NCBI RefSeq assembly: GCF_026571515.1
Contig: NW_026861391.1
Span: 372,001-436,000, forward strand
Source: Ruditapes philippinarum
Taxonomy: Eukaryota
Reading direction: 5' to 3'
Length of the DNA: 64,000 bases
Made by a program: the position numbers and the translations under genes. This document shows, piece by piece, positions 2,843 to 63,227 of the stretch; within the stretch, counting starts at the first letter, position 1, and each line of letters begins with the position of its first letter. The notes beneath the pieces are model-generated. The model was given only the letters and a program-made list of their open reading frames with translations. It was not told where the DNA came from and did no database searches.

Positions 2843-3652
2843 ATGGAAGGTTTATTTTATTCAGTAATTGTCTTCATTTTTCTGGTAAGTATTATCAAAT
2901 TATTTCATGTTATAATTCCGTCAAACTTACAATGACAATCATTTGTTATACTGTTATGCATGCAGAACTTTTAATAAAGGAATGTAACAAATGTGTTTGC
3001 GCTCTCTTTCCCCTTTCTTTCTCTCTCGTTGCCTTAAAAATAAGCAATATAGCATTAGATTTATATAAATCTGCATAAAGTGTGGTTTTTATCTTTTCAG
3101 ACACCAGGGTTAATACACAGCAAAGTCTTACAAGGCTGCTCAGAACCGGAAACTATGCCCACTATGAGTTTTGAGGAAAACTTAAATATAACAATAGAAC
3201 AGTCTTTTAGTATTATCCCTGGCTGGTACGAAACAATCGCAGCTAAAAACGAAGTTCCTTTGGAATATATAGATGTTCACCACAAACATTTCTTCGGACA
3301 TGGCAAATGTAAAAATAATAATAAGAGAAATCGCAAACATAAAAGAGACAACACTCTGAATAATCTTAGTGAATGTATGTGGAGATATATTGAAAACCTA
3401 GACATAAATAGAAAACCTAGCAAACTTCTAGAAGTTGAGTGTATATGCAGCTCTCCACTTAATGCTAGGAGAAATGTTGATTTGATTTGTGAAAGGGTAT
3501 TTGAATATGTATCCGTGTATAGAAGAATTGGGTGCGTCAATGGAGTGTTTGAGTACAAACGCGTATGGGAGCCAAGAGCAGTCGCTTGTGTCGCAACAAC
3601 AATGCCCGAACCTACCCGGCTTCGTACAATGGCTTACAGAATATCAGAATAA
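2843..3652 (+). CDS. IL17: IL-17-like cytokine #1 (exons 2843-2884 and 3101-3652)
   Basis: Exon 1 MEGLFYSVIVFIFL ends at donor CTG|GTAAGT; acceptor TTTTCAG at 3100; the phase-0 join gives a signal peptide. C-terminal SECMW...DINRKP..L.EVECIC...C..V.EYVSVYRR..C.....Y...W...AVAC fits the IL-17 fold. TATATAA at 2701; AATAAA at 3851. Confidence 0.88.
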
Positions 3653-5157: not shown

Positions 5158-5724
5158 ATGCGATTCGGTTTTGCTGTGCTTTTCACCTGTGTGTTTATAC
5201 ATGTATCTTATGCTGACCGAACATTGAGAGTTAAGTGTGATGCAAAGGAAAACATCACTCTGACGGAGCGAATTAATGAACTTCATGAATCGTTTTACAT
5301 GCTGCCATTCTTTAGAAACAGTAATAACTTCATTACTAACGGCTCTGACTTTCACCAAAATGTACACGCTAAAACTGTCCAGCTCGCTAAAAGGAAGAGT
5401 GATCTTTTGTGTAAAACTCAGAAAGGCAAGAAGAGAGGCAATAAACTACGGAGAGCATCAACGTGTCCATGGCATTACGTGTTGAATGTTGACAATCAGA
5501 GAATCCCAACTATATTGTTTGAAGCTCGGTGCAATTGCGCTCATAGATGCCTGGGAGGTATGGCTAACTCTAGATGTGAACCGATTAACTACTACTATCA
5601 CGTGTATAGGAAAGTGGAAGAAGATAAATATGGGTTTTGTACTTATCGTGAAACGTTAGAGGCCATCAGTGTTGGATGTACATGTATTCACCATCCGAAA
5701 GATAGACCCGTCACCTCACTCTAA
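5158..5724 (+). CDS. IL17: IL-17-like cytokine #2 (uninterrupted CDS, 188 aa)
   Basis: ATG 5158 opens signal peptide MRFGFAVLFTCVFIHVSYA; canonical RASTCPWHYVLNVDNQRIPTILFEARCNC...CEPI...ISVGCTC motif. Confidence 0.95.
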   Translation: MRFGFAVLFTCVFIHVSYADRTLRVKCDAKENITLTERINELHESFYMLPFFRNSNNFITNGSDFHQNVHAKTVQLAKRKSDLLCKTQKGKKRGNKLRRASTCPWHYVLNVDNQRIPTILFEARCNCAHRCLGGMANSRCEPINYYYHVYRKVEEDKYGFCTYRETLEAISVGCTCIHHPKDRPVTSL

Positions 5725-18057: not shown

Positions 18058-19364
18058 CAAGGGACGGTCAGAAAATATCCGGACTTTTCATGCTCCTCTC
18101 TTTCCACGTGCAGCAATATACACACAATATATATTGGCAAAAGCCAATAACGTGGTCAGTTTATTTTCAATGATAGTTGTGTATACACAGTATTTTGCCC
18201 TCTGATATATGATAGGTGTTTCGTCTATCATGGACTCTTTGTTAGAGGAACAACGCTCTGTAATAAAGTTTCTGGTTGCAGAAGGTGAAAAGCCCTGCCA
18301 CATCTTTCAGAGGCTTAAAAAAGATTTTCTGATAAATGTGTATCACGTTCAGCCTTCTACAACTGGGTTTCTCAGTTTCGTGAAGGCAGAATAAGTGTTT
18401 GTGACAAGCCTAGGACTGGGCGGCCAGCTGAGGCGGTGACCCCAAAAATGGTAGCAAATGTTAAAGCTTTTGTCAACAAAAATCGTCGGGTAACTTTGGA
18501 GGAGGAAGCCAACAAGTTTAGCATCGGTTAGGCATCGGCACACAAGATTTTACACGAACACCTAGGCATGAGCAAGGTAAGTGCCAGGTGGGTGCCTAGA
18601 CAGCTGTCCGCAGATCAAAAGACAACCAGAGTAACCAATGCAAAAGAACATTAAAGTCGTTTTAACGTGAAGGAGAAGTTTTTGAACCGCATTATCACTG
18701 GAGATGAGATGTGGGTTCATTATTCCGAACCTGATACAAAAGCTCAGTCAAAGCAGTGGAAACGAGCTGGTTCCCCACCTCCTAAAAAGTTTAAGCTGTC
18801 TCCTTCGGCTGGCAAAGTAATGCTTGTTGCCTTTTGGGATTCACGAGGAATGATACTTACTCATTTCATGCCAAAAGGTCAAACTGTCACCGCCAAGTAC
18901 TATTCTGAAGTAATTCTGAAAAAATCTCAGAGAAAAGCTGAAGCAAATGCGTCCCAGGTTAGCACAGAAAAATGTCATCCTTCTTCACGACAACGCCCCC
19001 TCCCATACCGCCGCAGCTACAGTGGAGGTTATCAACTCTTACAAATGGCAATTGTTGTCTCACCCTCCTTAAAGCACAGACCTCACCCCCTGTGACTTTT
19101 ATTTGTTTCCAGAACTGAAAAAAATTGCTTGCTGGAAAGAAATATAAGAACAGGGCGGCTTTGATATCTGCTGTTACACAGTACCTAAAACATAGGTCTA
19201 CGTCATGGTTCACAGCGGGAATACAAAAGCTCCCACGAAGATGGCAAAAGTGCGTAGACGTAGGTGGAGAATATTTTGAAAAAGAGTAGAAAGATTATTT
19301 TTTTTAATGTTGAATGGTTTACGAGAATGAGTCAAAAGTCCGGATATTTTCTGACTGCCCCTCG
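18058..19364 (+). mobile_element. Full-length (~1.3 kb) mariner DNA transposon, defective
   Basis: 31-bp TIRs CAAGGGACGGTCAGAAAATATCCGGACTTTT and CGAGGGGCAGTCAGAAAATATCCGGACTTTT (3 mismatches), flanked by TA at 18056-57 and 19365-66. The TACGAGGG terminus suggests the irritans-type group. Confidence 0.95.
18230..19289 (+). pseudogene. Mariner DD34D-type transposase pseudogene
   Basis: MDSLLEEQRSVIKFL...WVPRQL...ITGDEMWVH...LLHDNAPSH...HPP*STDLTPCDFYLF...GGEYFEKE*, broken by several stops and frameshifts. Confidence 0.93.
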
Positions 19365-21519
19365 TACGTAACGATTGCAACAGACAACAAATCCAAATTA
19401 GCTACTAGTATATGGTTTTATCAAAGAGAGCACGTAGCTTTAATCTAAATTGGTTTAGGTATGCGGACATTTTATCAAGTATAATGGAAACATAAATAAG
19501 ATAAACAATGTAAATTTTTCAATGAAATACCAGTAAGATTCGATATTAAGACGGAAATTTAAAAAGAGCTTACAGAGTTTTGATTGTAAATAAAACAGTA
19601 CATAATCTTATCATTTGTCGATTCATTGAACATGAAATAAAAGGGCAAACTTTCGAAGATTTGTAAGGTTTGCGACATCACAAATAATTCAGAATTCGAA
19701 AGTAACTGACCAAGACTCATGCTAATAAACCGAGACGGAAGTTTTTATCGCTGAATTAGGGAACGCCTAATCAAGGTGCATGATATTATTCTGTTTATCT
19801 CTCTTAAAGTATAAGGTAAACTTGTTGGAGAAGTATTGTATAAAAGCAACAGCTGATCGCTTTTTTCTCAATTTTATAGAATGTTTTTCCACCGACTACT
19901 ATTTAACTCGTTTGTCGAACCGCAAGGACAATAGCTAATTTTTAATTGTTATCAGCCTTATTCGCCAACGACACGCATATACAAAAATCTGTAGCTTAAA
20001 CCATATTTATATTAAAAAAGATACTGTTACTTTAACCAGAATCTAATTTATACAAAAATGTATTTCAATAAATAATCATCGTATAATATCATGCTGTAAA
20101 AGAAAGTTAACTTTGACATGCAGTTTTCGAAAATGTTTTCGAGTTCAGTTATTTTTTTTATAATTTTAAAGGACGTATTTAATGGAGAACTGTATTACAC
20201 AAGTGCACATTTTATTTCAATGCTGTTCGTAACAAAAAGTGCAGTCAATTTAAAATAGTTTCTATTCTATAGTTGTCTCTATTAAAACATTTAATTTGTC
20301 ATCAGTGATACGCAATGAATTCTTTCGTTTAAACTAATATTTTTATGGTTGTTCCCGGTAAACATGCATTGCATCCTTATGATGATAATTTTGCTTCTTG
20401 TTGTTTCTCTGCTCTTTGATTGGATATTAAGCCCATATTAGATTTCGTTACACAAAATATATGTTTATAGCATTTTTTAAAAAGATAATTGATCAAGATT
20501 TTCTTTACTGCTACTTATTAACAAGTATACTGATACTGATTAGTAGTACTAATTGTAGCATCAATATTCCTCTGTTGTATTTATTGTGTCCTGATTTAAA
20601 TTCAGATTATTGTATTCAAGCATTGTTGATTAGGAACATTGATGAAAGTAATTATACCTCGACTTAATCTTGTCTCGAGAGACTTACGTTCTTTAATATT
20701 GTTTAAAGAAATGTCAACCTTTCTTTAAATGGTATCAACCTATATCAAAAGAATATTATTTACATTATGTTGTTTTTATATCCTTTTGGTCGATTCTCCA
20801 AACAAACTATAATACTGCTTCTAAACCGTTCAGCAATGATTTCGTATATACCATATTTGCTTCATTCGTTAAGGTTTTATGGAAGCGCTTTTTTTCAAAA
20901 TTGTTTGATAAAGGCAGCATATATATATATAGCTTTATACACTTTAAGAATGATAAAAGCAACGTTTACAATAGTTCACAATTGTATAGAGGGTAAATTT
21001 GTAAAGGGATCAAATAATATATTATTTTTTAAGATATGTGAGTGTATAACGGACATATATTTCTATCAAAGAGTATGAAAAATGAAATAAAAACAAGTTG
21101 ATAGATATAATAAGAATTTATTACATTGTTGCTTAATAAATAATACTATAAAAGAATTACTATAAATTACCTGAATAGATTATGCCCATTTGGTACAATA
21201 AATTATATGTGAAATGTAAAGATTATAGGACGGACATATAATGAGATTTTTAAACAAATAAATCAAAGTCTGAACATAATACATATTAAAAGAAGTGGAT
21301 AATGTTTTCGTAGTAGATAATTCAAGATGTAGATAATGTTGTCGAAATGCAACTCTTTGTTCTTCTTAACTTTTCCATAGCTGTCATTTCATATGTCAAT
21401 TTTCTCATTTCATTTTTCTTTTTTATTTCTATATTCCTAAACTCGACTCAAATTTTCTTCCAGATGTTCTTAAATCTTAACTAATTGAGATTCATATTTG
21501 TTTTGTTTCTAGTTATTAT

Positions 21520-22520
21520 CTAGTTCTCTGAAACTACTCTTGTGTTTGGAGACTCGGTGTCCTTTTTAGGTAAAACAGGTGTACATCCAATGGCAACAGT
21601 TTCATAAGTTCTTTCATAAAGAAAGCCGTTTCTTTCGTCACAAATTGTATTTCCATTTTCGTCATATTTCTGTTTTAAAACTTTGTATCTGTACGGTATT
21701 TCTGTACACTGAGGTGTCAGTAAGTTTTCTGCTCGTTTACTTTTACACATTTTTCTGCATTTCCTGCTACGGCTCTCCTCTTTACAGTTACATTTCCTTC
21801 GTTTCGATTGTAAATACCGAACTTTACTGCATGTACATTTAGCTGTGTTAATGATTGGAGGGTATCTGTTTGGATCGTGACTTAAAAGAAAGTAATACGG
21901 ACATAATGACCTGTCGTTTAGATTATCGCTATTATGTTTCAAAGTCCGTGAACACCTTCGATTTCCAAACGAGTGTGTTAAATTACCCCTCATTTCTCTA
22001 GCGTGTTTGTCCTGCAAACCAATCTTTTTGAAGATGCTGGGTAGTAACTGGAAAGAAGGGTGGATTGAATTTTCACCTAACCACTCTATGTATTGTTCGC
22101 GTAGATTTCTCGGAAGGGTCGAGTCATTGTTACATGAATGTGCAAATGTCAACTCCACGAATACTAGACCCTGAAAACAAAAGGGAAAAAACATTGAAAA
22201 TAATAAAAATCAAATTATTTCTAAAGCAGTTATAAAGTGAAAAAGAGAAATACAATTAATAATCATTGTGATCATATTTAGTTTTACAAATGTAAACAAG
22301 TTTGATAATGAATTTCAGAATAACCAGTTCTTTTATTAAAAAAGCACCTCAAACCAATTATATATTTGCATTTTAATTATGATAATGGAAAAAATCGTGC
22401 AGGTTTATGGGCTTACATTTAGTGACCATATTTATTGAAAATTATTATTTTGTTATTAAAAAGTTTGCAATAAATATCATGGAAAAAGTAGCATACCATA
22501 AACACTAGTGACCACAACAT
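21520..22520 (-). CDS. IL17: IL-17-like cytokine #3 with basic Cys-rich insertion (exons 22520-22497 and 22170-21520)
   Basis: Exon 1 MLWSLVFM|GTATGC, acceptor GTTTTCAG, phase 0, giving MLWSLVFMGLVFVELTFA-HSC. Motif DRSLCPY....HDPNRYP..I.TAKCTC...C..I.Y...VL...ETVAIGCT. The same exon structure is conserved in paralog #4. Confidence 0.9.
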
Positions 22521-25050: not shown

Positions 25051-27134
25051 TATTGATAAAAAGTAACACATTATTTAGGATTACATAACATGTAGAATCT
25101 AACATGTAGGGTTATTAATCTCGAAATATGGAACATTTTAAGATGCATGTGTTTCTAAACGAATCTGTCGTGTTTCGGTAAGTGAACTCAAAATCTAACA
25201 ACTACATCTACGCAATCAGTAGGCAATTATAATTTTATAAATATAGATAAACATGCAAACATATATAAACATTATAAACATTATATCAACAGAGCACATC
25301 AATAATCATATAATATATTAGACACTTATTGAACATCATAAACTTGGGGTACTGCTAAGTTCTGATATTATTCTCATTTTATTGGACAAAATTTAAAATT
25401 CAGATATTGTGAAAAATAAACTCATTAAGTTCTTACGCAAAATAAAAATAAACTGTTCACTAGAAAATGTAATGATATCTAAATGCAATGTAAATTGTAT
25501 TGTAGGAAGATGTTTTGTTAAACAGAACAAAAATATCTGAGCAATTTGATTTGAAAGTTAAGGAGTTATCATGTACATTTTATTTTAGAACTATCCTTTA
25601 CATTTCATTTTATAATGGTGAGAACTATCCTTTACATTTTAGTTTTGAATGGCCAATGAGATTACCATAATAATGATAATAATAATAATTTTATTCGGTA
25701 AAAGTGTACATGACATGGCAATGACATAATGATGCATAATGATACAATACATATAACAATAATCAAAATATTAAAGAGACTAGAAATATCACATGACATA
25801 AGTATACGACAAAATATAAATATATGAGCCACCAGATTTCATTTTGTAATTTTAAAACGACAAATGAAAACTCTCCTTATATTCAGGTTTTTCCTGTAAA
25901 TTTTACAGGAAGTCAAGCAGATTTTAGGCCGGCATAAGCAATATTATTTTACACAATGAAATCGCCGAAATATAGATTTGTGTATATAAATCAATGTTGA
26001 GATTGTAGATTTAGGAACAAAATAAACATTTATTCTGAAACTGTTTCTCGAACCCGTTGTCAGCTTCCCAGCTTCCAAATGTATGAGCTTAGTTGTCACT
26101 GGCAACTACACCGCTGCGGCTAACAGTACGAGTTACTTAAAAAAAGTTACACTAAAATTTGATCTCCATAAATTCCTGATTAGTCCATAAACGCGTTTTG
26201 TTTTTTAATCGAATTGTACCTACACAATTTAAACTGTCACTTGTTAACCATGGTGAGAATTGCTTTAACTTAGACTTGCATTGTTATATGACTGTGTTGA
26301 AGGGTATGCGTTCCAAAGTGATTGTTCTACTTATATAGTACTATTTATTTTCATTTTATTTAATCCTTATAATAAATGTTAACGGACGGTATAGTTTGTT
26401 AAATATTTGTTCTACTTTGACTTTTTTGTGTAAATTTGTGTTAATATTTTTTATGACAACGTTTTTCTCAGGGAAGTTTAGACAAAAAATACAAAATTAA
26501 TGTTATCCTTTTTATCAAGGTTTAACATCCTTAATTTTGTCACTTACAATTCCATTGGTTACAAACGCTACTCCGAAAACTTCCTGCCCATAAAAAGCAT
26601 GACGCTCTAGGACGCACTGGCTCCATAGACTGTATTGACATTAATCAAGTTAGACGTAAAGATTGCAATAGATAAATAATAGAGAAAATAGCCCGATTAG
26701 CTAGTAGTATTTGGTTTTAATCTAAGCTTTTCTCAAATAGTGCACGTAGCTTTAATCTGAAGTGGTTCAGTTATGCGGACATTTTATCAATTATAATGGA
26801 AAATTAAATAAGATCAACCATGTAAATTTTTCAATGAAATACAAGTAAAATTAAATAGTAGCAAGGAAATTTAAATAGAGGTCACACATTATTCATTCCG
26901 ATTTCTTATCCTAAATAAAACAGTGCATAATCTTACCATTTGTCGATTATGTAAATAGAAAATAATAAGGCGTTATTTCAAAGGTTTTGACGAGTTGCGA
27001 CATCACATATAATTCAGAAGAAACTGACGAAGACTTTGTGCTTCTAAAACAACAAACCAACAAAACAGGGGCGGAAGCTTTAATCACTATTAGGGAATTC
27101 CTGATCTTTGATCAAGTGGCAATATATCATTATT

Positions 27135-28562
27135 TCTAGCTATCTTACACCTAGGGACAAAACATTCCGTTTATCTATATTACATTCAGGGACAAAGCAT
27201 TCTGTTTATTTATCTTACATGCAGGGTCAAAGAATTCTGTTTATCTATCATACATGCAGGGACAAAGCATTCTGTTTATCTTTTTTACATGCAGGGACAA
27301 ATCATTCTGTTTATATATCTTACATACAGGAACACAACATTCTGTTAATCTATCTTACATGCAGGGACAAAGCATTCTGTTTATCTATATTACATTCAGG
27401 GACAAAGCATTTGGTTTATTTATCATACATGCAGGGTCAAAGAATTCTGTTTATCTATTTTACATGCAGGGACAAATCATTCTGTTTATATATCTTACAT
27501 ACAGGAACACAACATTCTGTTAATCTATCTTACATGCAGGGACAAAGCATTCTGTTTATCTATTTTACATGCAGGGACAAATCATTCTGTTTATATATCT
27601 TACATACAGGAACACAACATTCTGTTAATCTATCTTACATGCAGGGACAAAGCATTCTGTTTATCTATATTACATTCAGGGACAAAGCATTCTGTTTATT
27701 TATCTTACATGCAGGGTCAAAGAATTCTGTTTATCTATTTTACATGCAGGGACAAAGCATTCTGTTTATCTATATTACATTCAGGGACAAATCATTCTGT
27801 TTATCTATCTAACATGCAGGGACAAAGCATTCTGTTTATCTATTTTACATGCAGGGACAAATCATTCTGTTTATATATCTTACACACAGAAACACAGCAT
27901 TCTGTTTATCTATTTTACATGCAGGGACAAAGCATTCAGATTATCTGTTTTACATGCAGGGACAAAGCATTCTGTTTATCTATCTGACATGCAGGGACAA
28001 AGCATTCTATTTGTCTATCTGACATGCATGGATAAAGCATTCTGTTTACCTCTCTTACGTGCAGGGACAAAGCATTCTGTAACATGCAGGGACAAAGCAT
28101 TCTGATTATCTATATAACATGCAGGGAAAAATCATTCTGTTTATTTTTCTTACATGCAGGGACAAAGCATTCAGTTTATCTATCTTACATGCAGGGCCAA
28201 ATCATTTTGTTTATATATCTTACATGCAGGGACAAATAAAATTCAGTTTATCTATCTTTCATGCAGGGACAAAGTACTTTGGTCATCTATATTACATGCA
28301 GGGACAAAGCATTCTGTTTATCTATCTTACATGCAGGGACAAAGCATTCAGTTTATCTATCTTACATGCAGGGACAAACCATTCTGTTTATATATCTTAC
28401 ATGCAGGGACAAAGCCTTCAGTTTATCTATCTTACATGCAGGGACAAAGCTTTCTGTCTATATATCTTACATGAAGGGACAAATCATTCTGTTCATATAT
28501 CTGACATGCTGGGACAAATAAAATTCAGTTTATCTATCTTTTATGCAGGGACAAAGTACTTT
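27135..28562. repeat. 35-bp minisatellite, ~41 units (ACATGCAGGGACAAAGCATTCTGTTTATCTATYTT)
   Basis: Directly visible tandem units without spacers; variant units recur at multiples of 35 bp. Confidence 0.97.
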
Positions 28563-28620
28563 GGTAATGGTCATTAGGCTGTACTTCTTTCTACATATTT
28601 ACACAATATTTTATGTCGAT

Positions 28621-31212: not shown

Positions 31213-32217
31213 CTAGTTCTCTGAAACTACTCTCGTGTTTGGAGACTCGGTGTCCTTTTTAGGTAAAACAGGTGTACATCCAATGGCAACAGTTTCATAG
31301 GTTCTTTCATAAAGAAAGCTGTTTCTTTCGTCACAAATTGTATTTCCATTTTCGTCATATTTCTGTTTTAACACCTTGTATCTGTACGGTATTTCTGTAC
31401 ACTGAGGTGTCAATAACTTTTCTGCTCGTTTACTATTACACGTTCTTCTGCATTTCCTACTATGGCTCTTCCCTTTACAATTACATTTCCTTCGATTCGA
31501 TTGTAAATACCGAACTTTACTGCATGTACATTTAGCTGTGTTAATGATTGGAGGGTATCTGTTTAGATCGTGACTTAAAAGAAAGTGATACGGACATAAT
31601 GACCTGTCGTTTAGATTATCGCTATTATGTTTCAAAGTCCGTGAACACCTTCGATTTCCAAACGAGTGTGTTAAATTACCCCTCATTTCTCTAGCGTGTT
31701 TGTCCTGCAAACCAATCTGTTTGAAGATGCCGGGTAGTAACTGGAAAGAAGGATGGATTGCAGTTTCAGCTAACCACTCTATGTATTGTTCGCGTAGATT
31801 TCTCGGAAGGGTCGAGTCATTGTTACATGAATGTGCAAATATCAACTTCACGAATACTAGACCCTGAAAACAAAAGGAAAAAAATCATTGAAAATAAGAA
31901 GAATATAAAATCAAGCTATTTTTATAGTAGTTTTGTAGTGAAAAGATGATCATTGATTTATATTCAATGTTAAGTAAAACTAAACAAATGTGATAATGAG
32001 CTTCAAAATAGCCCGTTCTTTTATTAGAAAAAAAACATTTAAAAATGATTTACATGAAAGCACTACCAATCCGTTATATATTTGCATGTTAAATTATGGT
32101 CTTTGTGTGCTTACAATTTGTGAACATATTAATTGACAAATATTATTTTGTTATTATAAAGATGTAATAAATATCTGAATAAAAATATCATACCATAAAC
32201 ACTAGTGGCCACAGCAT
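31213..32217 (-). CDS. IL17: IL-17-like cytokine #4, recent paralog of #3 (exons 32217-32194 and 31863-31213)
   Basis: Exon 1 MLWPLVFM|GTATGA; exon 2 is 651 nt, the same length as in #3; 16 aa differences from #3 in the mature protein. Confidence 0.9.
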
Positions 32218-35200: not shown

Positions 35201-35750
35201 ATTCTAAATTTTGGCCAAATTGTTATAATTTTGTTTGATAAATACACCATGTAACCATCTTGTTTTTTTTTTGTATTTTTCGACATAAGAATTTCTACCT
35301 CGAATATGTATGTTGAATTCAAAAATCCTAAGTACATAGAATACTGTGGGCAACATAAAGCTTTTATTTTCGCTAGCTTAAAGATATTTACTGTTTTAAC
35401 TTGATTCACACATTACTTAGAGTAGATTATGTTGTCATTCGTAATATTGTTATAAAATATTATATTATTTAAAAGGATAACTTAAGCTTAATGGTATATT
35501 ATATCAAATCTATATATTTTTAAGAGCAATTATTCGCGTGAAAGTTAAATCACAGTTTTCAAAAAAAAAAATCCGATATTTTTTTTGACAATTTGAAAAC
35601 AATGGTCGAGATTTCATTCTGGTAATCCAGTATGCTTTATATGCAGGCATCGATGTAAATATATTTAAAACAACTGTTTTATAGCAGGTGGCAAGGTGTT
35701 GGTTTCAAAGTAAAGATAAAATTCTATATATCTTTTTTATTTTCTTGAAG

Positions 35751-36356
35751 GTCTTAGCTTTAGCAGGAACCGGAATAGTGTTTGCAGAATGCATCGAGCC
35801 AGAAAACGCTGAAGAAATCAAACTCAACCTACAAAAGATAATTAAAGACACGTATCTGAACTATATGTCATTTTTCAATATCAAGAGCAACTTAGACAGG
35901 GTAAAAAGCCAGCTAAACGACACGGATAACTCTACTATTACAACAGATTTCAACCACCGAAGATCACAAACATACATTAGTAGGTTATATGGAGAGCCTA
36001 AATGTAAATCAAGACTACGATTTAGAGCACATGAAAACCACTCATCTAATGAAATATCATCATGTCCATGGTATCATATAATAGAATTTGACAGTGATAG
36101 GATTCCGTTAACTTTACTTAAAGCACGTTGCACGTGTGTAAACTGCCTCGTGCCAATGAGAAACGGGTACAGACGAGATCGAAACGCTACTAGTGGTTCC
36201 TGTAAGGAAGTTAGTTACCATATGCCTGTTATACGAAGACATTGTGTTGGTGGTGAGTTTCAGTATCGTATTGCTATAGAAAACATTCCTGTTGGGTGCA
36301 CATGTCAAAGGTGTAACCGAAATAAGAAACAAGGAAAGACGACAGCACAAATATGA
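35751..36356 (+). CDS. IL17: IL-17-like cytokine #5, main exon (first exon unresolved)
   Basis: Acceptor TTTCTTGAAG at 35750, then VLALAGTGIVFA-EC (end of a signal peptide); ISSCPWY....DSDRIP..L.KARCTCVNC...CKEV.Y..PVIRR.C...IPVGCTC. Confidence 0.9.
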   Translation, partial: VLALAGTGIVFAECIEPENAEEIKLNLQKIIKDTYLNYMSFFNIKSNLDRVKSQLNDTDNSTITTDFNHRRSQTYISRLYGEPKCKSRLRFRAHENHSSNEISSCPWYHIIEFDSDRIPLTLLKARCTCVNCLVPMRNGYRRDRNATSGSCKEVSYHMPVIRRHCVGGEFQYRIAIENIPVGCTCQRCNRNKKQGKTTAQI

Positions 36357-56716: not shown

Positions 56717-57610
56717 ATGTACATAATAAAGGTATTTTAGTTTGATGAAATGGAGAACAGTTTCAAAGTTCTTAAACAGTTACAACTCTTTTTTGAAAAA
56801 TTGTTAATCATACGTATTTGTAGTTTACATTTTTTTCAAAGACATATGTATCTAAATTTTACTGCACTGCCTAAGCCGGTACTAGGGGTGCAGACGGTTA
56901 CTAGCTCTTAAAAGAACCGTTTAGAAACTGACTTAATCAAACCGCATCCGGTCTCTTTTTCCTTCTTGTCTTTTGGATGTTTTAAAGCATTTTGTTTCTA
57001 TTTTTACAATCAATGTTTAACTGAATGTTATTATTACTTCTTTCAGTTTATCGTTGTTTTGTTGGCGGTAAAACAGTTCAAACAAACTTCAGCGTGTAGA
57101 GAGCCAAAGAACATAAATATAGAACTAGCTCGTGCATTTTATGACCTTTACACAGATGACAGATTTAGTAACTTCTCGTTAAATATAGTACCTTGTTTGT
57201 CGTCTAGCAAAATCATCAAGAATACTCATAAACAAACTGGAAGCAATGAACACACGCGAAAGTCATCCGGCAAATGCGTTATTCCTGAAAATGGAGGAAA
57301 TGTCATAACTGACAGTGAGCGTAATCATGGAGAGATGTGTCCCTGGAATTATGTTATAGATTTTGACGAGAATAGATTCCCTAAAAGATTGGCAAAAGCC
57401 GTTTGCCAGTGCGAGCATTGTCATAGGGGATCGTGTCGCCCTATACATTCATATATTCCAATTTTAAGGAAAGAGTGTGATTTATATTCTGGTCAATATG
57501 TGTTTAACAAGTATATAGAGGAAGTGCCTGTTGGTTGTCGATGTACTCGCGCTAGAACAACATCGCAAGAAAATATTTTTAGACATCGTTTGTACAGGAT
57601 ACAAGAGTAA
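56717..57610 (+). CDS. IL17: IL-17-like cytokine #7 (exons 56717-56731 and 57047-57610)
   Basis: Exon 1 MYIIK|GTATTT, acceptor TTTCAG at 57046; MCPWNYVIDFDENRFPKRLAKAVCQCEHC...CRPI...VPVGCRC; TATAAAA at 56661. Confidence 0.92.
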
Positions 57611-62523: not shown

Positions 62524-63227
62524 ATGTTTTTGATAAAGGTAAATATCTTTTCTTAATATCTAACTTTATTATGCATTAATGTAATTAAGATATTTCTCGG
62601 TTTATGATTGTATTTGTTAATATTTTTAAATAGTTTATGTTTCTTTTTTTATTTCAGTGGTCTTTGATTATCATTGCGTTTGGAATGTCTCAAGAAACAG
62701 CTATATTTGCATGTAGAGAGCCTGATAATCTACACCTTGAGGTTGCCAATGCCCTTCTCGGCCTTTATACAGACGATGGATTTAGAAACTTTTCACTTAA
62801 TACAATACCATGCTTGAAATCAAATGACATTATTAGGAATATCCCCGAACACTATGACAACAGGGAACAAAGCCATATACCTACCGGCACATGTGTTATT
62901 CCTGAAAATGGAGGAAATGTCATAACTGACAGTGAGCGTAATCATGGGGAAATGTGTCCCTGGAATTATGTTATAGATTTTGACGAGAATAGATACCCTA
63001 AAAGACTGGCAAAAGCCGTGTGTCAGTGCGAGCATTGTCATAGGGGATCGTGTCGCCCTATACATTCATATATTCCAATTTTAAGGAAAGAGTGTGATTT
63101 GTATTCTGGTCAATATGTGTTTAACAAGTATATAGAAGAAGTGCCTGTTGGTTGTCGATGTATTCGTGCAAGGAGGGCAGTTCAAGGAAACGTGTTCAGA
63201 CATCGTTTATTCAGAATGATGGAGTAA
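62524..63227 (+). CDS. IL17: IL-17-like cytokine #8, paralog of #7 (exons 62524-62538 and 62658-63227)
   Basis: Exon 1 MFLIK|GTAAAT, acceptor ATTTCAG at 62657; knot domain almost identical to #7; TATATATA at 62437; AATAAA at ~63408. Confidence 0.92.

What the first reader, a model, noticed from the sequence alone, without database searches (positions are those of the whole stretch)
3430..3600. Paired loss of two knot cysteines in #1, #3 and #4
Seen: #2 and #5-#8 have CxCxx(x)C and terminal GCxC. #1 has CICSSP and ACVA; #3/#4 have CTCSKV and GCTP. Both the third Cys of the first motif and the last Cys are therefore absent together (#1 has 8 Cys; #3/#4 have 8 plus 4 in the insert). Established: in vertebrate IL-17A/F these two positions form one ring disulfide. 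Inference: an open-ring subclass with altered receptor use; ring loss may have permitted the insertion in #3/#4. CPW has also become CMW or CPY.
Basis: partly seen in the sequence, partly recalled or inferred. Interest (0 to 1): 0.7.

Follow-up and report, generated by a model that had tools for sequence, protein, structure and literature searches.

The report
Clam IL-17s missing one knot disulfide
Three clam interleukin-17 genes lack a pair of cysteines that likely form one bond of the protein's knot; this is an already published variant, and it likely arose twice separately here, so it is an ordinary family variation and not a new subclass.

Summary
IL-17 genes #1, #3 and #4 of a venerid clam tandem cluster lack knot Cys3 and Cys6 together and keep Cys1, 2, 4 and 5. 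These positions align with the human ring disulfide Cys76-Cys123. The pattern is published as IL-17 type T1C (PNAS 2024, PMC11087794). It occurs in 20 of 150 representatives (profile biased towards it) and in mussel IL17-18 and -21.

The 'one subclass' idea fails. #1 lies in a 17-row clade that lacks the pair throughout (100/98) and includes Mya, Mactra and Mercenaria proteins. #3/#4 nest among intact-knot proteins (99/91). Joint monophyly is rejected (AU p 0.0004 and 0.0005).

Ring loss is not needed for the insertion: relative P0084 has a 44-residue basic loop with an intact ring, and loops are usually shorter after ring loss. Models keep the IL-17 fold, and #3 is predicted to dimerise. Altered receptor use is untested. 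Leads left: a CxC/CxxxC basic helix in the #3/#4 insert, and IL-17s elsewhere in the genome lacking both ring disulfides.

The parts
2843..2884 (+). #1 exon 1 (Met plus hydrophobic start of a likely signal peptide, 14 codons)
   Evidence: Sequence; spliced contig in run X2 joins it to exon 2 across a 216-base GT..AG intron
3101..3652 (+). #1 exon 2; the 197-aa product is a T1C-type IL-17 with 8 Cys
   Evidence: Pfam IL17 26.2 bits against cut-off 24; AlphaFold pLDDT 90, best matches IL-17A/F and IL-25
3440..3457 (+). #1 CICSSP: knot Cys2, the extra invertebrate Cys, and Pro in place of Cys3
   Evidence: Pro in 16 of 17 clade rows
3584..3595 (+). #1 ACVA: knot Cys5, and Ala in place of Cys6
   Evidence: Ala in 16 of 17 clade rows
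5158..5724 (+). #2, IL-17 with intact knot (T1A)
21520..22170 (-). #3 exon 2; T1C pattern by a separate loss, 224-aa product with 12 Cys
   Evidence: Pfam 33.4 bits; tree; model pLDDT 85
22497..22520 (-). #3 predicted exon 1 (8 codons; 326-base intron follows)
   Evidence: Sequence and likeness to the start of P0007; no splice joint seen in reads
21709..21828 (-). #3 40-residue basic loop between the CxC and knot Cys4 (15 K+R, 3 D+E), with CxC-x8-CxxxC
   Evidence: predicted helix over the CxxxC at pLDDT about 60
31213..31863 (-). #4 exon 2, recent duplicate of #3 (26 differences in 651 bases)
   Evidence: product reads the same as P0007, which NCBI names Ruditapes philippinarum (compared by eye)
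32194..32217 (-). #4 predicted exon 1
   Evidence: matches the start of P0007
31402..31521 (-). #4 40-residue basic loop with four Cys
35685..36356 (+). #5 open frame, IL-17 with intact knot and a 21-residue loop
43733..44434 (-). #6 open frame, IL-17 with intact knot
56912..57610 (+). #7 open frame, IL-17 with intact knot
62634..63227 (+). #8 open frame, IL-17 with intact knot

Best explanation
#1, #3 and #4 are clam IL-17 genes that lack knot cysteines 3 and 6, the published T1C pattern, likely through two separate losses; they are predicted to keep the IL-17 fold and likely act as secreted dimeric cytokines on IL-17-type receptors. Shown: the paired absence, the retained Cys1/2/4/5, IL-17 membership, and the splicing of #1 in one run. 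Inferred from trees: #1 belongs to an old lineage shared by Myida and Venerida clams, with a fixed Pro/Ala replacement; #3/#4 lost the pair later, from an intact-knot ancestor like P0039. Inferred mechanism: bonds 1-4 and 2-5 still tie the four strands (as PMC11087794 states for T1C), so 3-6 is dispensable, and once one cysteine goes its unpaired partner is likely removed by selection. In the #3 dimer model both replaced residues lie at the dimer interface, so any effect is more likely on dimer packing or partner choice than on the fold. The basic insert likely grew in a lineage that already had long basic loops.
For: Paired pattern and exact columns. T1C defined in print as loss of cysteines 3/6, with two such genes in amphioxus. 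20 of 150 representatives lack both, none lacks Cys3 alone. Mussel IL17-18 and -21 show the same pattern by eye. Trees without the loop and Cys6 columns: #1 in a 17-row all-T1C clade at 100/98; #3/#4/P0008 with intact P0039 at 99/91 inside a 16-row clade at 99/94. The mixture model gives 96/90 and 99/97 for the #3 groupings and 93/89 for the #1 clade. AU test p 0.0004 and 0.0005. Named clade members: Mercenaria, Mya arenaria, Mactra antiquata. AlphaFold pLDDT 90 and 85, with IL-17A/F and IL-25 as top matches. #3 homodimer: score 0.53 against best control 0.06, runs agree in at least 58% of contacts, pLDDT at least 59, interface includes residues 108 (Cys3 column) and 189 (Cys6 column). That mark was reached by 21 of 30 solved pairs and 0 of 23 single chains in microbes, and by 17 of 29 pairs (animals 7 of 16) and 0 of 30 single chains in eukaryotes. 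IL-17 dimers are solved, so the pass may come from memory.
Against: The alignment has only 172-175 usable columns, and the deep branches are weak. The clade lists for the AU test were taken from trees already seen. Receptor binding and secretion were not tested. Raw RNA reads gave no cover of #1 exon 2 (X21, about 4% of the run read; X23 laid nothing), and no splice joint was seen for #3/#4. The #3/#4 dN/dS of 0.036/0.062 rests on 26 differences and does not show strong constraint. VIA-align Z of 7.5 lies in the range the tool calls common. In one small group intact P0046 nests among pair-lacking P0066 and P0128, so a regain there cannot be excluded.
Confidence: 0.85

Rival explanations
1. #1, #3 and #4 form one open-ring subclass from a single loss, with a shared new receptor.
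For: The same two positions are lost, and the genes sit in one cluster.
Against: AU test rejects one clade under two models. #1 and #3 are 19% identical, against 46% for #3 and intact P0039. The replacements differ (Pro/Ala against Val/Pro).
Confidence: 0.03
2. Loss of the 3-6 bond freed the loop and permitted the 40-residue insertion in #3/#4.
For: #3, #4 and P0008 have both traits (loops of 37-40 residues), while their closest intact relative P0039 has 20. An enabling role in this one lineage is not excluded.
Against: P0084, next to this group in the tree, has a 44-residue basic loop with an intact ring. Loops are shorter without the ring (median 10 against 14). Loops of 18 or more occur in 32 of 127 intact against 1 of 20 ring-lacking proteins.
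Confidence: 0.15
3. Convergent loss of the 3-6 bond is adaptive: it re-shapes the dimer base and switches receptor or dimer partner, for example making antagonists or heterodimer subunits.
For: Repeated losses (8 changes on the 195-row tree; 3 on the 52-row tree). Fixed Pro/Ala in 16 of 17 rows of the #1 clade. Replaced residues lie at the modelled dimer interface. An intact-knot gene of the L003 group precedes a #1-clade gene here, in a Mya gene model and in P0033.
Against: No binding data. A fixed replacement is also expected after a neutral loss in an ancestor. Neighbour order in an old cluster needs no functional link.
Confidence: 0.2
4. The genes are decaying copies or assembly artefacts.
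For: #3/#4 are recent duplicates with little sign of constraint between them. Loose read ends at 21873-21877 in one run hint at an insertion allele.
Against: Open frames, intact splice sites, a spliced #1 contig, and relatives in other species that keep the same pattern.
Confidence: 0.04

Closest known systems
IL-17 structural type T1C (Chen et al. 2024, PMC11087794)
   Same: Defined by loss of disulfide 3/6 with 1/4 and 2/5 kept, exactly the pattern of #1, #3 and #4.
   Different: The passages and dataset part read list oyster, limpet and pearl-oyster IL-17s but no clam, and give no count of independent losses. Fig. 1 and Fig. S1 are images and could not be seen.
Mytilus galloprovincialis IL17-18 and IL17-21 (Saco et al. 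2021, PMC8353272)
   Same: By eye they keep Cys1, 2, 4 and 5 and lack 3 and 6.
   Different: They also lack the extra CxC cysteine. The paper calls their two bonds those 'characteristic of chordate species', whereas the sequences suggest 1-4 and 2-5. Not placed in my trees.
Human IL-17A/F and IL-25 (type T2)
   Same: Same fold; the GCTC end and strand-2 cysteines align.
   Different: They keep both ring bonds and have serines for Cys1/Cys4; the clam proteins keep 1/4 and lose 3/6.
Intact-knot invertebrate IL-17 (type T1A), e.g. #2, #5-#8, L004, L005, P0039
   Same: Same family and cluster; the same four additional cysteines in most members.
   Different: All six knot cysteines are present.
Cysteine-stabilised helix (CSH) motif (passage in PMC7912591)
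   Same: The #3/#4 insert has CxC and CxxxC, the latter in a predicted helix.
   Different: Here CxC comes first, eight residues before the helix, inside a cytokine loop. P0008 has only CxxxC. No PDB sequence matched the insert.

Membership tests
IL-17 family | Pfam PF06083 above the curated cut-off | tested here: met
   26.2, 33.4 and 35.1 bits for #1, #3, #4 against 24
IL-17 family | Four-strand cystine-knot-type fold closest to IL-17 | tested here: met
   All listed Foldseek rows are IL-17A/F or IL-25; VIA-align Z 7.5, rmsd 5.0 and 6.2, 95 aligned to IL-17A; predicted models only
IL-17 family | Dimer | tested here: inconclusive
   #3 model supports a homodimer (0.53 against control 0.06), possibly from memory of solved IL-17 dimers; #1 not tested
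IL-17 family | Secretion and signalling through a SEFIR receptor | not testable with these tools
   Hydrophobic N-termini seen by eye; no signal-peptide predictor or receptor test was run
IL-17 type T1C | Cys3 and Cys6 absent | tested here: met
IL-17 type T1C | Cys1/4 and Cys2/5 present | tested here: met
   Invariant in alignment A1
IL-17 type T1C | Bonds 1-4 and 2-5 actually formed | not testable with these tools
   Model coordinates not available; needs disulfide mapping
IL-17 type T1A (true cystine knot) | All six knot cysteines | tested here: not met
IL-17 type T2 (vertebrate) | Cys1/4 replaced by Ser, both ring bonds kept | tested here: not met
One open-ring subclass (#1 + #3/#4) | Monophyly | tested here: not met
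   AU p 0.0004 and 0.0005
CSH motif (insert of #3/#4) | CxxxC in a helix cross-linked to CxC | tested here: inconclusive
   Spacing present and helix predicted at pLDDT about 60; bonds not seen

The most novel reading that the evidence does not exclude
The 3-6 bond of clam IL-17 has been shed repeatedly as a switch of dimer partner or receptor, and in #3/#4 the loop has become a grafted, disulfide-stapled cationic helix that gives the cytokine a second activity (binding to glycans or microbial surfaces). Together with the genome's IL-17s that lack both ring bonds, a pattern outside the five published types, this would make the clam family a natural series for dismantling the cystine knot.
Probability: 0.15. 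Interest if true: 0.5.

Novelty: new member of a known kind. Interest (0 to 1): 0.2.

Why it matters
As given, the finding is a correct reading of a known variant. Its modest value is that one cluster holds two independent losses of the same disulfide beside close intact relatives (#3 against P0039, L004 and L005). That makes a clean comparison for asking what the 3-6 bond does in invertebrate IL-17, which the papers read here do not test. It also warns that cysteine counts alone misclassify these proteins (mussel IL17-18 and -21), and that a Pfam genome search misses some of them (#3, #4 and the gene at C9878:366123).

Tried and rejected
Compensation by other cysteines: rejected, since Cys6 has no substitute and the insert Cys that aligners slide into the Cys3 column lies 13 residues on. 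One clade: rejected. Ring loss as precondition of long loops: rejected as a general rule. CPW to CMW/CPY as a marker: rejected. PDB sequence search with the 37-residue insert: 0 hits at E up to 10. A likeness of the insert to small cysteine-stapled helical venom peptides is recalled only and found no support there; chains under 20 residues are not in that library. The ESM Atlas gave no result for #3 or for a ringless protein. The IL-17F structure paper (PMC125646) was not held, so human connectivity rests on one preprint passage and PMC11087794. Paper searches for a clam or bivalve report of this loss gave only PMC11087794 as a direct match; subscription journals are mostly not searched. Two look-ups of earlier scan findings returned nothing. 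Run X23 laid no reads, and X21 reads over #3 lay in both directions and in the intron, so they were not taken as expression.

Full report
Setting. The window is AT-rich animal DNA with eight IL-17 open frames, all above the Pfam PF06083 cut-off. It is G000:C9878:372001-436000. A profile scan of C9878:302001-506000 (14 stretches of 10 kb plus the window) found 16 IL-17 frames between 338.6 and 476.5 kb; 5 of the 16 lack Cys3 and Cys6: L017, a gene at 366123, #1, #3 and #4. The product of #4 reads the same as P0007, which NCBI names Ruditapes philippinarum, and #1 has a 54% relative in Mercenaria, so this is a venerid clam.

Observation. Confirmed in every detail. #1 is a two-exon gene (2843-2884, 3101-3652); one contig of run X2 is spliced across that intron and one contig of X1 covers exon 2 (RNA is the tool's guess for both runs). 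#3 and #4 are a recent 2.2-kb duplication, 86% identical overall, with 26 differences in 651 bases of exon 2. A profile of alignment A1 aligned to human IL-17F puts the third Cys of CxCxxC on the second strand-2 cysteine and the final Cys on the last of GCTC, and puts invertebrate Cys1 and Cys4 on the two serines. A preprint passage gives the human bonds as Cys71-Cys121 and Cys76-Cys123 (10.64898/2026.09.04.749315, passage only). The lost pair is therefore 3/6.

How common. Of 1,820 representatives at E up to 0.001, the best 150 were returned. 128 have both cysteines, 20 lack both, none lacks Cys3 alone, and 2 lack Cys6 alone: P0033, a two-domain model, and P0145. The profile had 10 of 19 rows lacking the pair, so 20 of 150 overstates the frequency. 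One row (P0151) lacks Cys2 and Cys5 together, and all 150 keep Cys1 and Cys4. On a FastTree of 195 rows each cysteine changes 8 times; only 3 independent pairs lie on starred branches and all 3 agree (p 0.25, L030 left out of the count). Left out of the 199 aligned rows: P0033, P0145, P0001 (near-copy of #1) and P0007 (copy of #4). Own loci L018 and L026-L029 were never aligned, being partial or broken.

Already in print. PMC11087794 (passages, section 6, supplement part 1, dataset part 1; figures not visible) sorts IL-17 knots into T1A, T1B, T1C, T2 and T3, defines T1C by loss of cysteines 3/6, says the two remaining bonds still link the four strands, and counts two T1C genes in amphioxus. 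PMC8353272 (passages, supplement parts 1, 17, 18) notes two mussel isoforms with four cysteines; by eye these lack 3 and 6. PMC4517768 (passages) documents the invertebrate 1/4 pair. PMC13105070 (passages) added nothing on this point. Supplementary figures that I could not see (Fig. S1 of PMC11087794) may list molluscan T1C members.

Clade test. Trees were built with the loop between the CxC and Cys4 and the Cys6 column removed. In a 52-row subset chosen after the FastTree (175 columns, LG+G4), #1, L017 and the 366123 gene fall in a 17-row clade (100/98) in which every row lacks the pair. #3, #4 and P0008 (99/94) join intact P0039 (99/91), then P0084 (98/96), inside a 16-row clade (99/94) that also holds cluster genes L004 and L005. 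Holding the two groups together costs 59 log units, p-AU 0.0004; a 30-row subset under the mixture model gives 50 units, p 0.0005. Of 10 representatives looked up, 4 carried names, three with species: Mya arenaria (P0044, P0051) and Mactra antiquata (P0030), all in the #1 clade. The clade has Pro for Cys3 and Ala for Cys6 in 16 of 17 rows.

The insertion. Loops between the CxC and Cys4 are shorter without the ring (median 10, n 20, against 14, n 128). Loops of 18 or more residues occur in 32 of 127 intact and 1 of 20 ring-lacking representatives. P0084 has a 44-residue Lys/Arg-rich loop and an intact ring. The closest intact relative P0039 has only 20 residues, so a local enabling role is not excluded, but none is needed. 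The #3/#4 loop has 15 K+R and the spacing CxC-x8-CxxxC, with a helix predicted over the CxxxC at pLDDT about 60. That fits the cysteine-stabilised helix spacing described in PMC7912591 (passages), but P0008 has only the CxxxC half and no bond was seen.

Structure. AlphaFold models from 100-row alignments have pLDDT 90.2 (#1) and 85.3 (#3) and four long strands. IL-17A/F and IL-25 fill all listed Foldseek rows and the top three VIA-align rows. An ESMFold2 homodimer of #3, folded without my alignment, scored 0.53 against a best control of 0.06, with at least 58% agreement of contacts and pLDDT at least 59. The mark was reached by 21 of 30 solved pairs and 0 of 23 single chains in microbes, by 17 of 29 pairs in eukaryotes (animals 7 of 16; 1 of 7 without an older solved relative) and 0 of 30 single chains. 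As IL-17 dimers are solved, it shows likeness, not binding. The confident interface includes residues 78-81 and 185-195, and the residues in the Cys3 and Cys6 columns (108, 189); no insert cysteine is named in it.

Mechanism. Shown: paired loss, family, two positions in the tree. Inferred: secreted dimers held by bonds 1-4 and 2-5, probably aided by an upstream Cys paired with the extra CxC Cys (both present in 143 of 150) and an N-terminal Cys paired with the finger-tip Cys (by recalled analogy to IL-17A/F). Because the bond is dispensable, loss of one cysteine likely leads to loss of its partner. Receptor use is untested; I give about 20% to a real switch of partner or receptor.

Verdict. 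A correct observation of a known variant, with two independent origins in one cluster. New member of a known kind; interest 0.2.

Noticed in passing
L019-L025 (G000 contigs C9544, C9033, C9892, C9574, C3775); L027 similar but with a stop: Seven IL-17 frames lack Cys2, 3, 5 and 6, that is both ring disulfides, and keep Cys1, Cys4 and the upstream and extra cysteines. L021 scores 40.2 bits on Pfam IL17. They group with P0151, which lacks only 2/5 (95 on FastTree). This pattern is not among the five types in the passages of PMC11087794; it may be more novel than the finding itself.
   Followed up: partly
L045:4123-4629 (-), G000:C9878:366123: A further cluster gene lacking Cys3/Cys6, in the #1 clade, just under the Pfam cut-off (23.5 bits) and missed by the genome search.
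   Followed up: yes
L003 (G000:C9878:370369) and window 2843-3652; P0172, P0033: An intact-knot gene of the L003 group lies directly upstream of a #1-clade gene here; two-domain gene models from Mya arenaria (P0172) and an unnamed source (P0033) show the same order. Support for the L003 grouping is moderate (90/85 and 88/87).
   Followed up: partly
window 21873-21877: In run X21, 4 and 8 reads have loose ends on either side of a 5-base stretch in exon 2 of #3 (or #4), as an insertion with target duplication in another individual would give.
   Followed up: no
window 21368-21786: The X2 contig laid on #3 carries the #4 letter at 8 of the 10 coding differences listed, so it likely comes from a #4-type allele.
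   Followed up: partly
window 18655-19095 (+): Open frame that looks by eye like a mariner-type transposase fragment (recalled motifs).
   Followed up: no
window about 27100-28580: Tandem repeat array that gives several spurious repetitive open frames.
   Followed up: no
L030 (G000:C9051:61160-61441): IL-17 lacking both the upstream Cys and the extra CxC Cys, which fits these two being a pair.
   Followed up: no
PMC8353272 supplement: Mussel IL17-3, -5, -16 and -17 appear by eye to lack Cys2 and Cys5 (type T1B).
   Followed up: no
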